64,000 nucleotides of DNA from an uncultured Alphaproteobacteria bacterium (GCA_902588615.1 CACIPV010000001.1:90682-154681), one strand, 5' to 3'; positions 2,914 through 11,348 are shown, counted from the stretch's first letter. The notes: a model not told the origin generated them from the sequence alone. Translations and numbers: made by a program.

Positions 2914-2932
2914 AAGAAGATAAATTAAATTA

Positions 2933-3286
2933 TCATTTTGAACATTTAAACCAAGCTTGTAAGTTTTCTCTTGGATAATCCCAGACAATATTAATTATTT
3001 CATTTAAAGGAAGAAAAATAATTAATCGGATATCTTGGTCATATAAATAACTTATTACTTCATCATTTTTTTGTATGAGGTTTAATTCTTCTGTTTTACC
3101 ATCAAGAAAGTTGATAGTAAGTTTACCTTTAGAACCTGATATTTTTAAAACATGAGAGCCTAAACTTTCGACGTAATCACTCATATAAAAAAATTCATCA
3201 TCTAATGGTTCACAATTATATTTTTTTCCAAAAAATCCCCAACTTAGATTTGGGACCAATAATAATAAGATTAAGAAAATTTTCAT
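2933..3286 (-). CDS. Small secreted hypothetical protein
   Basis: Signal peptide MKIFLILLLLVPNLSWG; AGGAG Shine-Dalgarno just upstream on minus strand; Cys near each end. Confidence 0.75.
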   Translation of the reverse strand: MKIFLILLLLVPNLSWGFFGKKYNCEPLDDEFFYMSDYVESLGSHVLKISGSKGKLTINFLDGKTEELNLIQKNDEVISYLYDQDIRLIIFLPLNEIINIVWDYPRENLQAWFKCSK

Positions 3287-3436
3287 GACTCCTAAATTTA
3301 AATATTAACATATATATTTATTAGTTTAGAAACGTTATTTATCGTTATCTAGATTTAGACTTTAAAAAAACTGATTGAAAGAGTTTTTAAATAATATACT
3401 AAATACGTTGGGTTTACTGACCTTTTTGATAAAGAA

Positions 3437-3497
3437 AAGGAGAAACACGAAGATGGCCTCGTGCTGGAATTGGTAGACAGTCTGGACTTAAAATCCA
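3437..3497 (+). repeat. attL-like direct repeat: leader plus 5' half of tRNA-Leu(TAA)
   Basis: 60/61 identical to 5925..5985 (45 bp exact at 3453..3497); weaker homology extends back to about 3390. Confidence 0.95.
3455..3497 (+). pseudogene. tRNA-Leu(TAA) 5' fragment
   Basis: GGCCTCGTGCTGGAATTGGTAGACAGTCTGGACTTAAAATCCA then diverges; no variable arm, T arm or CCA. Confidence 0.92.
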
Positions 3498-3580
3498 ATT
3501 TAAAATTTCAATTTATTTACTCACAATCAGCTAATTTAAATACTCTTTTTAAGTTTTTTAAATTACTTAAGTGTAAGATA

Positions 3581-3621
3581 TCGTAATTTAATCGCAATAA
3601 TTGACTATTGTTGGTCGTAAT
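3581..3621 (+). repeat. Putative integrase arm-type sites, left set
   Basis: TCGTAAT 3581, TCGCAAT 3592, TCGTAAT 3615. Confidence 0.65.
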
Positions 3622-3730
3622 TTATTTATGAAATATATATTTCAAATCTTGGGGATAATATTTAGAAATTTCCACAATAAATTTTTTATGAATACTAAAA
3701 AAGATATTACTTAAATGTTATTGTTAATTA

Positions 3731-4351
3731 ATGAATCAAAATTTTGATATTAATAAAACACCTCTTCTTTTTCAGGATTATGATAGCATTAATTCAGTAA
3801 GAAATATGAGTAGTCTCTACTTCATCAATTATTACAAAGAACCATACTATCATAAGCAGGCGGGTATAATCACCCAAATGTGTATTCCAACTTTTGTCCA
3901 TCCTGAGCAGTGTTTTGTAGGTTGGAACTATGACGAAAGAGAGAACAGCGAAGAAGATGCAAAGTATCTAGCCAATAAGATGCATTTTTCTCAGTGTGAC
4001 TTTAACTTTGTAAGGTCAAATAATAGCTCACTTAATGTTGGCTATTGCACCGCTAATAAAGGTGAATACAAACATAAAGATGATTTACATGTTTTAAGTT
4101 ATTTAAGCTGCGATACATTTGATGCATGGATAAAAGCAATTCACTCCTCTAGAAAAAATTCTTTTAGATTTGGCTTTAAGATTGAATTTAATCAATATGC
4201 GAGAGATGTTTTTTTAGGTCAATTGATAATGAATCATATTGGCGACCTGGATGAGAAAGAATATCTTGACTTTAATATAAAAAATATTGAAATACAATTT
4301 AGCACATATGAGAATTACTCTGGATTTCAATTATCTCCTCAATCAGCTTAA
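3731..4351 (+). CDS. Hypothetical protein (island cargo)
   Basis: 206-aa open frame in AT-rich DNA; no recognisable motif. Confidence 0.7.
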   Translation: MNQNFDINKTPLLFQDYDSINSVRNMSSLYFINYYKEPYYHKQAGIITQMCIPTFVHPEQCFVGWNYDERENSEEDAKYLANKMHFSQCDFNFVRSNNSSLNVGYCTANKGEYKHKDDLHVLSYLSCDTFDAWIKAIHSSRKNSFRFGFKIEFNQYARDVFLGQLIMNHIGDLDEKEYLDFNIKNIEIQFSTYENYSGFQLSPQSA

Positions 4352-4646
4352 ATTCGTATTTTTATTTGTTCTTTGGTCTTATTGTGCTTTGAGGATATTT
4401 GATAATACCTTTACTACTACTTTGGTATCATTAACACAGGGTTTTTACCACCCTCACGGGCTTACTAAATGGTGGTATTATATACAAATGATGCCTGGTT
4501 GGTGGATAATGCACCTATTCGTAATAGCTTTCATCCCCCTCATGTTAAATAAAAAATTTAGCTCACAATTACAAAAAAGTAATCTTAAAAAAGTTAATTA
4601 CTTTTTTTGGTTTATATTTGGACCATTATTGATAATTTTATTTTAA
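4308..4646 (+). CDS. Hypothetical membrane protein (island cargo)
   Basis: About three hydrophobic Trp/Phe-rich segments; ATG at 4308 preferred over TTG at 4287. Confidence 0.6.
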   Translation: MRITLDFNYLLNQLKFVFLFVLWSYCALRIFDNTFTTTLVSLTQGFYHPHGLTKWWYYIQMMPGWWIMHLFVIAFIPLMLNKKFSSQLQKSNLKKVNYFFWFIFGPLLIILF

Positions 4647-5218
4647 TCAAACAAATTTAAAATAGCTCCCATCAAAGCTTTTACTAAAGTTATAATAATA
4701 TCCAGAGTAATCCCAACAATATTCAAGATAAAGCCATACCAATCAGCGGCATAGAAAATACTCACCACAGGCAATAAGGCAAATATGAGCCCCTTAAAAC
4801 CAAACCAAAAACTAGTATCCATACTCAGAGATAAAAACCATTTTGGAATTGAAAGCAAATATGTAAATCCTTGAAGGTATAAATAACAAATCAATAAAAT
4901 CTCAAAATTTGATTTCGTTTCACCATATCTATTAAACTTATAGGAACTAGGCCTGTCTTTATTTTTTTTATCGTATTTTAATTTTCTAATCTTTCTAGAA
5001 GTTCCGATGGGCTGTTTGTTAATAAAATCGTCAATATCGTCTCTAATTGAAACTAAATAAGTAGTGTCATAATCTTTACCGTTAAAATTAGCTCTATAAA
5101 AACCAGTCTCATCCTCTTTGAAAATTTCAATTCCTTTATAGATTTCAAATAATTTCTTATCATAAGATAAATTTGCATTTTTTTGTGGAGGGTCTTTGTA
5201 TAAATCTTCTTCAGTCAT
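4643..5218 (-). CDS. Hypothetical membrane protein (island cargo)
   Basis: Charged N-terminal half, hydrophobic C-terminal half with 2-3 TM segments. Confidence 0.7.
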   Translation of the reverse strand: MTEEDLYKDPPQKNANLSYDKKLFEIYKGIEIFKEDETGFYRANFNGKDYDTTYLVSIRDDIDDFINKQPIGTSRKIRKLKYDKKNKDRPSSYKFNRYGETKSNFEILLICYLYLQGFTYLLSIPKWFLSLSMDTSFWFGFKGLIFALLPVVSIFYAADWYGFILNIVGITLDIIITLVKALMGAILNLFD

Positions 5219-5227
5219 TTATTAAAT

Positions 5228-5731
5228 TTAAAAGAAAAACCATTTCTTTTTTAATTTCTTATCAAATTCTTCTTGAAACTCCAGAAATCTCACCCAAGCA
5301 TACTCATCATTATATTCTTCACTTCCATTTAAAATATTTCTCATAGCCTCTCTGCCCATATCATATGCCTTATGGGCAATGTCTTTAATGATTTTTGCAT
5401 CGTCATCTTTCATTTCATCTATTTTTGAAACACCAATAAAACCACTAACAATAGTTTCCATTAACTCTGGGTTTTCATAATGGCTTTCAAAAAAATAAAT
5501 TCTTGCTTGCTTTTGATTAGAAATATCAAAGTAATTACATGTAGCAGAAACAGCTCCGGCTTGAAAACAAGCCTTTAAAGAGAATCTAGTTTGAGACTCA
5601 GATTCGTTTAAATCCTCATCAGACTTATATTTTTTAGTTAAAATATTTTTTAAATTAAAAGATTGATTTTGAAGTTTTTCAAATCTCTTAACAGTTTTTG
5701 CCAATTCCTCTAATTTTTCATTTAAAGACAT
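5228..5731 (-). CDS. Hypothetical protein (island cargo)
   Basis: 167-aa helical ORF ending KKKWFFF. Confidence 0.7.
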   Translation of the reverse strand: MSLNEKLEELAKTVKRFEKLQNQSFNLKNILTKKYKSDEDLNESESQTRFSLKACFQAGAVSATCNYFDISNQKQARIYFFESHYENPELMETIVSGFIGVSKIDEMKDDDAKIIKDIAHKAYDMGREAMRNILNGSEEYNDEYAWVRFLEFQEEFDKKLKKKWFFF

Positions 5732-5797
5732 TTTAAATATAATTTAATTCAAAATTATTAATGTACAAGTTGCACTGGATTTTATATTAGAAAATTG

Positions 5798-5837
5798 TCG
5801 TAATCTGGTCGCAATAAAAATCTATATTTATCGTCAG
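5798..5837 (+). repeat. Putative integrase arm-type sites, right set
   Basis: TCGTAAT 5798, TCGCAAT 5809, TCGTCAG 5831; spacing matches the left set. Confidence 0.65.
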
Positions 5838-5942
5838 GGAATATTTTATAAAATTATGTGGTTGCAAGATTCAAGAAATGATATACTCATTACGATTGAG
5901 TTTACTGGCCTTTTAAGCGATTTGAAGGAGAAACACGAACAT

Positions 5943-6030
5943 GGCCTCGTGCTGGAATTGGTAGACAGTCTGGACTTAAAATCCAGTGGGATTTATTCCC
6001 GTGGCGGTTCGAGTCCGCCCGAGGCTACCA
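5943..6030 (+). tRNA. tRNA-Leu(TAA)
   Basis: GGCCTCG/CGAGGCT acceptor stem, CTGGA-CTTAAAA-TCCAG anticodon arm, long variable arm, GGTTCGAGTCC, encoded CCA. Confidence 0.98.
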
Positions 6031-6041
6031 TTTTATTAAAC

Positions 6042-6359
6042 ATGATCATTGTTGAAGTAACTTTTAAAATAGACCCCTCCTTAACAAAGGAAATGTTAAC
6101 AGAAAAATTTTTAGAAACTGCTCCGATTTACAGAACCACACCTGGTTTGATAAAAAAAAACTATATATCAGATCTTAAAAATAATATTGCAGGTGGCATA
6201 TACTGTTTTGATAATATGTTAAATGCAAAAAGATGGTTCGATGATGAAAGAATTGAATGGATTACAAATAGATACTCGAAACCTAAGATAAAATTCTATG
6301 AAAATTTTGTAGTAGTTGACAATGAGTCTAAGAAAATTATATCTGATGACAAATTGTAA
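6042..6359 (+). CDS. YdhR-like putative monooxygenase (dimeric alpha/beta barrel)
   Basis: PGLIKKNY and AGGIYCF motifs; true start taken as ATG 6042, after the tRNA. Confidence 0.75.
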   Translation: MIIVEVTFKIDPSLTKEMLTEKFLETAPIYRTTPGLIKKNYISDLKNNIAGGIYCFDNMLNAKRWFDDERIEWITNRYSKPKIKFYENFVVVDNESKKIISDDKL

Positions 6360-6379
6360 ATATGTATTACTGTTAAATA

Positions 6380-6494
6380 AATAGGCGGCGTCCTACTCTC
6401 CCAAGCCTTAAGACTAAGTACCATCGGCGCTGGAGGCCTTCACGACCGAGTTCGAAATGGGATCGGGTTTTTTCACTCCGCTATGACCGCCACA
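6380..6494 (-). rRNA. rrf: 5S rRNA
   Basis: Reverse complement has CCCGATCCCATTTCGAACTCGG, GCCGATGGTACT, GGGAGAGTAGG; ends approximate. Confidence 0.95.
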
Positions 6495-6537
6495 AACTTT
6501 TTATAACATTACAGTTAAAACTTTTCGCTGTGTATTG

Positions 6538-9255
<2,718 letters not shown>

Positions 9256-9391
9256 TTAACACACAGTGAAAAGTTTGTAGTTAATAACTTTTTGTAGTTA
9301 TTTGTTGTTATATTAGTTGTTTAATTGACGAATAACTCGTGCAAGTCATTCGTCTGTGTTATCAGCTTACATATTTACGATTTTAAAAAGT

Positions 9392-9467
9392 TGGTGGAGG
9401 ATAGCGGGATCGAACCGCTGACCTCCTGAATGCAAATCAGGCGCTCTCCCAGCTGAGCTAATCCCCC
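9392..9467 (-). tRNA. tRNA-Ala(TGC)
   Basis: GGGGGATTAGCTCAG...TTTGCAT...TCCTCCACCA in the 16S-23S spacer. Confidence 0.98.
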
Positions 9468-9475
9468 AACATTGT

Positions 9476-9552
9476 TGGTGGGCGAGGGAGGACTTGAACC
9501 TCCGACCTCACGCTTATCAAGCGCGCGCTCTAACCAACTGAGCTACACGCCC
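9476..9552 (-). tRNA. tRNA-Ile(GAT)
   Basis: GGGCGTGTAGCTCAG...TTGATAA...CGCCCACCA in the spacer. Confidence 0.98.
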
Positions 9553-9645
9553 AATCAATGCTCTTTATCAACACATGTTGAAAAAAGCAAAACAAATAGA
9601 CGGTGGTTACTTCGAACGTACACTTAGTTCAAAGTTTTTTTTCCT

Positions 9646-11143
<1,498 letters not shown>

Positions 11144-11285
11144 AATTACCTACTCATAAAAAACAAAGTTTTAAATTGACGTAGGTTAGACGCCAAAATA
11201 ACGAGCTGTCATTTGTCTCAAATGAAAGCTTGATCGAAATTTGACGTTATAAACCCACCGTCTATTCATTTCATATTTACAAAAA

Positions 11286-11295
11286 ATAAAGAGCA
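11286..11295 (-). promoter_or_regulatory. rrn leader boxA-like antitermination element
   Basis: TGCTCTTTAT on the transcribed strand about 145 nt before 16S. Confidence 0.6.
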
Positions 11296-11348
11296 AGAAT
11301 CACTAATGCACAATAAATGGCCTAGTGAATCGAATAAAAAGTAGAATA

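What the first reader, a model, noticed from the sequence alone, without database searches (positions are those of the whole stretch)
3581..5837. Matched triplets of TCGYAAT repeats inside both ends of the element (arm-type sites)
Seen: left TCGTAAT 3581, TCGCAAT 3592, TCGTAAT 3615 (+11, +34); right TCGTAAT 5798, TCGCAAT 5809, TCGTCAG 5831 (+11, +33). All are in direct orientation and non-coding, in DNA where CG is scarce. On a circle they would flank the core on both sides. Known: lambda-family integrases bind tandem arm sites about one helical turn apart. Inference: the cis machinery is intact, so the element may still be mobile, and the motif can serve as a search handle. Near-IHF motifs (CTGATT 3371, AATCAG 3525) are weaker support.
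Basis: partly seen in the sequence, partly recalled or inferred. Interest (0 to 1): 0.75.

Follow-up and report, generated by a model that had tools for sequence, protein, structure and literature searches.

The report
Integrase-less tRNA island with docking arms
The short repeats mark both ends of a 2.5-kb gene island that has no integrase and sits in a leucine tRNA gene of a marine bacterium; they are likely grip sites for a borrowed integrase, because islands with unrelated genes keep them at the same distances and phages that use the same tRNA site carry the same repeat unit beside their integrase.

Summary
Observation confirmed: two exact pairs in the window against 0.08 expected. The repeats lie inside a 2,488-bp island between a displaced 5' half of tRNA-Leu(TAA) and the intact gene. 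The island has no integrase. Four complete islands at this tRNA carry unrelated cargo (unknown ORFs, type I R-M, MetY, one gene). All four keep the pair at +92 to +94 and -176 to -178 from the anticodon loop, while the left spacer is unconserved. Seven right ends without a matched left end lack the pair. A 36.7-kb T7-like prophage in a sister family crosses over in the same 7-base loop and has the same repeat unit beside its integrase, but its second arm is inverted, so it is not shown to be the helper. Arm-type sites are likely (about 0.9). Present mobility is open (about 0.55): no helper integrase in this genus, no circle seen. The bare motif is a poor search handle, and the IHF boxes are not conserved. 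Closest class: CIME-like island of the rare 5'-fragment type. This scan has noted similar integrase-less cassettes on other DNA.

The parts
2914..3454 (.). Older island remnant: 117-aa ORF (2933-3286, minus) plus a decayed right-end module; its own left end is gone
   Evidence: Same piece directly before the intact tRNA in G009; complete version with both ends in L158, ORF 82% identical; missing from most relatives
3455..3497 (+). Displaced 5' 43 nt of tRNA-Leu(TAA) (attL); anticodon-loop core CTTAAAA at 3487-3493
   Evidence: Part of the 61-nt direct repeat 3437-3497 / 5925-5985; identity ends just after the anticodon stem
3581..3598 (+). Left arm pair, 11-nt period, +94 and +105 from the core
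   Evidence: Same place (+92 to +94) in G089, L158, L159 over unconserved spacer
3615..3621 (+). Third left site (+128)
   Evidence: Kept as a variant at +128 in L158; not seen in G089 or L159
3731..4351 (+). Cargo ORF, 206 aa, no family
   Evidence: No Pfam, PHROG or NCBIfam hit; 9 unnamed homologues; 44% identical ORF in a different tRNA-Gly island of G012
4287..4646 (+). Cargo ORF, up to 119 aa, hydrophobic, no family above cut-off
   Evidence: 67% identical ORF next to the 206-aa homologue in G012
4643..5218 (-). Cargo ORF, 191 aa, no family
5228..5731 (-). Cargo ORF, 167 aa, no family above cut-off
5767..5942 (+). Conserved right-end module: arm sites plus an inferred promoter and leader for the rebuilt tRNA
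   Evidence: 75-95% identical in G089, L156, L157, L158, L159 next to unrelated cargo; promoter inferred, not called by the consensus scan
5798..5815 (+). Right arm pair, 11-nt period, -177 and -166 from the core
   Evidence: Same place (-176 to -178) in G089, L158, L159
5831..5837 (+). Third right site (-144), degenerate; weaker look-alikes at 5770 and 5862
   Evidence: Kept in G089 and L159, weaker in L158
5943..6030 (+). Intact tRNA-Leu(TAA) (attR); core CTTAAAA at 5975-5981
   Evidence: ARAGORN, Rfam RF00005

Best explanation
The repeats are likely arm-type binding sites for a tyrosine integrase, on a 2,488-bp island that has no integrase and would have to borrow one. Shown: the island lies between a 5' tRNA-Leu(TAA) fragment and the intact gene, has a direct 11-nt-period pair at a fixed distance inside each end, and shares these ends with three other islands of unrelated cargo. 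Inferred: a circle carrying promoter, leader and tRNA 5' half crossed over in the 7-base anticodon loop, rebuilt the tRNA behind its own promoter and left the old 5' half upstream. Inferred and untested: an integrase made by a visiting phage or satellite that uses the same loop grips the arm pairs with its N-terminal domain and can excise or insert the island, which is why arms persist in complete islands and decay once an end is lost. The helper is not identified; the two candidate kinds are small 310-345-aa integrases with direct-direct arms and a 413-aa integrase of T7-like temperate phages of the same host order.
For: Fixed geometry in 4 of 4 complete islands; left-arm identity 79-93% vs 23-55% in the spacer; two of the four (L158, L159) were found by a leader pattern that does not contain the motif. 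Pair score 25-28 bits in 4 of 4 complete right ends, under 7 bits in 7 of 7 unmatched right ends and below 0 in 9 of 9 empty sites (matrix built from the four, so their own score is circular). In the genus, 10 of 12 integrase genes have such a 10-12-nt tandem repeat within 170 nt upstream vs 2.75% of 400 ordinary ORFs; L163, L166 and L177 have the same pair in the same direction at the far end. G141 prophage: 7-base overlap CTTAAAA only, pair TGTCGCAAT/AGTCGCAAT next to the integrase end; same junction in G152; related free phages L262, L263 have TGTCGTC/TGTCGTA repeats at the same place. L196 family: GGTCGCA pairs in 5 of 7 loci, tRNA-Leu(TAA) next to two. Tested precedent: phage mv4 attP has one pair of direct 11-bp arm sites at the end of each arm and a 7-bp overlap (10.1101/2023.11.06.565760, passages). 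No integrase in any of the four islands.
Against: No integrase next to tRNA-Leu(TAA) in the genus: none among the 29 stretches fetched around non-Xer-looking PF00589 matches, and no relative of the G141 integrase in 70 genus genomes. T7-like phage geometry differs: -87/-76 direct, -53 inverted, +131/+143 inverted. G141 and L196 were found with patterns that hold both core and motif, so their match is partly selected; HTVC200P uses the same loop with different repeats. Only 2 of 71 genus genomes show the complete island. No binding or recombination was tested. A variant with 3.2 kb more DNA just inside the left arm exists and could be a parent with an integrase; its content could not be read. 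Core plus motif was not found in 400 other genomes of the class.
Confidence: 0.55

Rival explanations
1. The repeats are arm-type sites, but relics: each island came in with its own integrase, lost it recently, and now moves only as a passenger of a neighbour or not at all (a plain CIME).
For: Decay is common at this site: older layer 2914-3454, G009, G002, L156, L157, L160. A longer variant exists with a 6-base overlap at 3637-3642, as a deletion would leave. No excised form or helper seen. The class is defined in PMC5704250 (passages).
Against: Four complete islands and none with an integrase. Left spacers have diverged to 23-55% while the pairs stayed within 2 nt of one position, which needs either four recent independent losses or selection after loss. 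Cargo also turns over inside one island frame (560 other letters for 4510-5750 in run X7).
Confidence: 0.35
2. The repeats are sites for a host or cargo transcription factor that controls the tRNA promoter and the first cargo gene at each end.
For: Both clusters lie upstream of inward-pointing cargo genes in the window; one look-alike lies in the inferred promoter region.
Against: Distances are fixed to the anticodon loop, not to gene starts, and cargo differs. The leader persists without the pair in 7 of 7 unmatched ends. No other pair in the laid genome.
Confidence: 0.05
3. Chance repeats in AT-rich DNA.
For: Single heptamers are common (141 in the genome); the sixth site is degenerate.
Against: 0 of 100 shuffles give two pairs; conserved place in independent islands.
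Confidence: 0.01

Closest known systems
CIME, cis-mobilizable element (PMC5704250, passages read)
   Same: Integrated unit with attL and attR kept, no integration or transfer genes; stacked on an older decayed element at one tRNA.
   Different: Described there as decay products in Firmicutes that travel with a neighbouring ICE or IME. Here no such neighbour exists, several cargoes share one end frame, and the target is the tRNA 5' half.
attP/attL/attR of heterobivalent tyrosine integrases, e.g. phage mv4 (10.1101/2023.11.06.565760, passages), KplE1 IntS (PMC2951348, passages)
   Same: One pair of direct repeats with 11-nt period at the end of each arm, 7-bp overlap between short inverted repeats, tRNA target.
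   Different: No integrase gene; the span of a circle junction would be about 310 bp against 215 bp (mv4) and about 240 bp (lambda) because promoter, leader and tRNA half lie between arm and core; binding untested.
HTVC019P-type temperate pelagiphages (bioRxiv 10.1101/410191, section 10 and passages) and the G141/G152/L262/L263 phages found here
   Same: Marine alphaproteobacterial host, tRNA-Leu(TAA) target; some pelagiphages replace the tRNA 5' end; G141 has the integrase - whole tRNA - host 3' half junction described for HTVC011P, the same core and the same GTCGCAAT unit.
   Different: These are 37-42-kb phages with integrase; their second arm is inverted and distances differ; the G141 integrase has no close match among 50,697 GenBank phages (best about 25%); HTVC200P has other repeats.
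Tycheposons and cryptic elements of Prochlorococcus (bioRxiv 10.1101/2020.12.28.424599, passages)
   Same: Small cargo elements at tRNAs of streamlined marine cells, partial tRNA copies, newer elements pushing older ones aside.
   Different: Tycheposons encode an integrase and often replication genes; this island has neither; other host phylum and tRNA.
Islander tDNA islands, 5'-fragment, anticodon-loop type (PMC4383910, passages and Table 1)
   Same: Displaced 5' fragment upstream, intact gene downstream, crossover in the anticodon loop.
   Different: 5'-fragment islands are 159 of 3,919 there; Islander rejects islands without an integrase or under 2 kb, so this family would be filtered out.

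Membership tests
Arm-type sites of a heterobivalent tyrosine integrase | Short tandem repeats on both sides of the core at fixed distance | tested here: met
   +92 to +94 and -176 to -178 in 4 of 4 complete islands
Arm-type sites of a heterobivalent tyrosine integrase | 7-bp overlap between inverted core-type repeats | tested here: met
   Anticodon loop CTTAAAA inside the CTGGA/TCCAG stem; identity ends after the stem; G141 prophage duplicates only these 7 bases
Arm-type sites of a heterobivalent tyrosine integrase | Same unit at att sites of an integrase that uses this core | tested here: inconclusive
   Unit shared with G141 and L196 families, but hits were selected by the pattern and geometry differs
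Arm-type sites of a heterobivalent tyrosine integrase | Bound by the integrase N-terminal domain | not testable with these tools
   Needs gel shift or footprint
Arm-type sites of a heterobivalent tyrosine integrase | IHF sites between core and arms (lambda type) | tested here: not met
   No conserved match with 1 mismatch or fewer in 8 island ends; the host has two HU/IHF-family genes
CIME | attL and attR retained | tested here: met
CIME | No integration or transfer genes | tested here: met
   for the window's cargo ORFs
CIME | Derived by decay from an ICE or IME and mobilised in cis by a neighbour | tested here: inconclusive
   No parent or integrase-bearing neighbour found; longer variant of unknown content
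Tycheposon / PICI-like satellite | Own site-specific integrase | tested here: not met
Tycheposon / PICI-like satellite | Replication or packaging genes | tested here: not met
   No family hit for any cargo ORF
HTVC019P-type prophage | T7-like phage genes with integrase upstream of RNA polymerase | tested here: not met
   Not in the window island; met by the G141 prophage

The most novel reading that the evidence does not exclude
These are non-autonomous mini-cassettes that ride on temperate T7-like phages: when a phage that targets the tRNA-Leu anticodon loop makes its integrase, the cassette is excised or inserted with it, swapping defence (type I R-M), sulfur (MetY) or unknown genes at one site and bringing its own promoter to rescue the tRNA. 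A phage integrase would then act as the shared recombinase of an integron-like cassette system in streamlined marine bacteria.
Probability: 0.2. Interest if true: 0.72.

Novelty: new variant of a known kind. Interest (0 to 1): 0.48.

Why it matters
Streamlined marine bacteria gain and swap single genes at tRNA islands, mostly with no visible mobility gene. Here the cis parts are mapped to the base (core, arm pairs, distances), four cargoes share them, and named candidate integrases from the same host order are in hand. That turns 'how do integrase-less islands move' into a direct binding and recombination test. It also shows that tandem repeats with an 11-nt period plus a tRNA core can pair orphan islands with integrase families, and that integrase-dependent island finders would miss this class.

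Tried and rejected
Bare 14-base motif in viral contigs: about 230 stretches estimated, 120 returned; 0 of 120 with a tRNA within 400 nt or the core within 220 nt, 1 of 120 with an integrase-like match more than 1.5 kb away, 47 of 120 one repeated context; 40 of the 120 loci held only short flanks. The 43-nt tRNA half: 0 viral hits. Leader pattern: 1 viral hit inside a coding region. Arm plus tRNA start: 12 viral hits, all G+C-rich and unrelated. One of the two core-plus-arm viral hits (L197) is chance. The third genus match of the pair (G028) is in a run of ORFs with no tRNA. Core plus arm in 400 other class genomes: 0. A conserved hairpin in the leader, suspected by eye: RNAalifold gave 0 pairs; Rfam found only the tRNA. 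Promoter scan did not call the inferred promoter. A hidden integrase among the cargo ORFs: no hit; Atlas look-alikes for the 206-aa ORF are weak, recognition 1902. Circle or empty-site joints in 7 seawater runs: none listed, but these are contigs that break at the 61-nt repeat, so the test has no power. In run X7, 0 of 7 listed differences in 3500-3642 fall in the 21 motif bases: about 1 in 3 by chance (hand estimate), not evidence. The start of the 3.2-kb extra DNA was not found in 187 genomes of the order. The broad integrase alignment A2 was too diverse for a locus scan. My notebook's '11 of 12' for the control is 10 of 12 at the fixed threshold, and the tRNA-Met islands noted as 5' type are 3' type. 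Earlier scan notes on look-alike DNA concern rRNA and do not bear.

Full report
Observation. The pair TCGYAAT-N4-TCGYAAT occurs twice in the window, both exact, against 0.08 expected from shuffles. Outside the island the laid genome (973 kb, 74.8% complete, 8,000 bases withheld) has no two exact heptamers within 60 nt. The pairs are the robust part. The third sites are weaker: left kept in 2 of 4 islands, right in 3 of 4.

Anatomy. A 61-nt direct repeat (3437-3497 and 5925-5985) holds 18 nt of leader and the first 43 nt of tRNA-Leu(TAA). The intact gene is at 5943-6030. The unit between the copies is 2,488 bp, so this is a 5'-fragment island, a type that makes up 159 of 3,919 islands in Islander (PMC4383910, Table 1). 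Identity ends just after the anticodon stem, which points to crossover in the loop CTTAAAA (3487 and 5975). Four cargo ORFs have no family above cut-off. The genome's two PF00589 genes score best with XerC/XerD models, below their cut-offs. G009 has the same left flank joined directly to the intact tRNA, the empty state for this island. Of 26 genus loci with this tRNA from that draw, 24 have another upstream sequence, mostly the native one right after the preceding gene, and 2 have the island-type leader. So 2914-3454 is an older layer and the leader is island-borne (inference). The promoter in that leader is inferred from need and conservation; the consensus scan did not call it. Records with the same leader are titled uncultured Alphaproteobacteria (not counted as further cases), and contigs from seawater runs cover the island (the best holder may be the source sample).

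Comparative test. I found three more complete islands at this tRNA: G089 (3.7 kb, type I R-M methylase and S subunit; found with the motif), L158 (0.77 kb, one ORF, native upstream sequence before the fragment) and L159 (2.9 kb, MetY-family enzyme); the last two were among 5 hits of a leader pattern without the motif. None shows an integrase among ORFs of 70 aa or more. In all four the left pair starts +92 to +94 and the right pair -176 to -178 from the loop. Left-arm identity is 79-93%, the 75-nt spacer 23-55% ungapped. A matrix from these 16 sites gives 25-28 bits for the four right ends (circular), under 7 bits for 7 of 7 right ends without a matched left end, and below 0 for 9 of 9 empty sites. 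Three of the seven are one old remnant, and for L157 the left end is off the fetched contig, so about four are independent. The leader persists where the pair has gone, which argues against a promoter role.

Positive control. Of 12 integrase loci fetched from the genus, 10 have a tandem repeat with 10-12-nt period within 170 nt upstream of the start, against 2.75% of 400 ordinary ORFs. Three of the 12 are close kin and two may be contaminating contigs. In L163, L166 and L177 the same pair recurs in the same direction at the far end, the window's layout. Their units (TGTCACAA, GTTGCCAA) differ by integrase. Phage mv4 gives a tested precedent: a pair of direct 11-bp arm sites at the end of each arm and a 7-bp overlap (10.1101/2023.11.06.565760, passages). 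That paper also notes that number, spacing and orientation of arm sites are specific to each integrase.

Looking for the integrase. No integrase lies at tRNA-Leu(TAA) in the 29 genus stretches checked. Core-plus-motif patterns found two families. First, G141 in the sister family (1 of 116) holds a 36.7-kb T7-like prophage (RNA polymerase, capsid, terminase, 413-aa tyrosine integrase) next to NAD kinase and moaA, the window's neighbours. It duplicates only CTTAAAA, carries its own tRNA-Leu, and has TGTCGCAAT/AGTCGCAAT at -87/-76. G152 has the same junction. Two free phage contigs with 55% and 48% identical integrases show TGTCGTC and TGTCGTA repeats at the same place. This layout matches the HTVC011P junction of Zhao et al. 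(bioRxiv 10.1101/410191, section 10 and passages; its supplementary att sequences were not seen and could bear on the comparison). Against it as helper: its far arm is inverted (+131/+143), distances differ, and it has no relative in 70 genus genomes. Second, viral contig L196 has the loop and the tRNA 3' half between two direct GGTCGCA pairs (-122/-111, +105/+116) beside a 343-aa integrase; 5 of 7 loci of that family keep the pair. Its direct-direct layout is closer to the island's, but the contigs are G+C-rich and the best relatives in the host order (25-33%) sit at other tRNAs. The two integrases are only 22% alike over 172 residues, and HTVC200P uses the same loop with other repeats, so the unit does not name the helper.

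Mobility. Contigs from 7 runs show no circle joint, but they break at the repeat. One 5,067-nt contig in run X7 has both ends, 3.2 kb of extra DNA at 3637-3642 with a 6-base overlap, and 560 other letters in place of 4510-5750; run X5 shows the same break. Cargo therefore turns over inside the frame, but the extra DNA could also hold a parent's integrase. The first two cargo ORFs recur (44%, 67%) in a 1.8-kb integrase-less island at tRNA-Gly in G012, with different end repeats.

Mechanism. Shown: structure, fixed arm geometry, lack of integrase, shared core and unit with integrase-bearing elements. Inferred: entry by crossover in the anticodon loop with promoter replacement. Untested: binding, and movement by a borrowed integrase. 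I put arm-type identity at about 0.9, split into 0.55 for a cassette kept usable by a helper and 0.35 for a relic.

Comparison and novelty. It works like the att region of a heterobivalent tyrosine integrase and fits the CIME definition on two of three features (PMC5704250, passages). It is not a tycheposon (bioRxiv 10.1101/2020.12.28.424599, passages) or a prophage. KplE1 (PMC2951348), PMC10484663, PMC12379486, PMC13626063 and PMC9897764 were seen as passages only. Nine literature searches (listings only for papers not named above) showed no description of this island family or its arm unit; the library lacks most subscription papers. This scan has noted integrase-less tRNA cassettes with arms in other genomes, including a SAR11-type case; I did not test those. 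New here are the 5'-fragment form with its own leader, the decay control, and candidate integrases at the same site. Verdict: real, a new variant of a known kind, interest 0.48.

Noticed in passing
G141:C5 about 61,683-98,375 (L251, L252, L239); G152:C11 (L250): Complete 36.7-kb T7-like prophage in a streamlined marine alphaproteobacterium, split tRNA-Leu(TAA), own replacement tRNA, 413-aa integrase with no close match in GenBank phages (about 25%); relatives L262, L263 as free phage contigs.
   Followed up: partly
L240 (G012:C30, about 4,650-6,490): 1.8-kb integrase-less island at the 3' half of tRNA-Gly(GCC) with GGTGTTAAA repeats at both ends and homologues of the window's first two cargo ORFs; similar repeats lie beside tRNA-Gly in L207.
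   Followed up: partly
L162-L178, L205-L223: Many small integrase-bearing islands at tRNA-Gly, Val, Met, Thr, Ala, Arg, Asp and Phe in this order, most with their own 11-12-nt tandem repeat just upstream of the integrase start; L163 and L177 duplicate the whole tRNA.
   Followed up: partly
L159 (reverse strand 400-466 and 740-850): Left tRNA copy runs 63 nt and then looks like a T-arm deletion; the MetY cargo has a leader that resembles a SAM riboswitch (recalled, not searched).
   Followed up: no
L156 (reverse strand 1427-1621): Degenerate near-full tRNA-Leu copy followed by a decayed right-end module, then 5 kb of glycosylation-type cargo and a second module before the intact tRNA.
   Followed up: partly
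L020 (G002), upstream of tRNA-Leu: Island-type leader sits directly after the host gene with no cargo: the native upstream sequence seems replaced by an island scar.
   Followed up: partly
L196 10062-10125: In this integrase family one arm pair lies inside the last codons of the integrase gene.
   Followed up: partly
window 3637-3642: Runs X5 and X7 have 3.2 kb more DNA here, bounded by a 6-base overlap; content unread.
   Followed up: partly
window 6380-11300: Linked 16S-tRNA(Ile, Ala)-23S-5S rRNA operon on the minus strand, 350 nt from the island's tRNA.
   Followed up: no
L192 4797-8184: Large phage contig with a cluster of 25 tRNA genes; a chance hit of the leader pattern.
   Followed up: no
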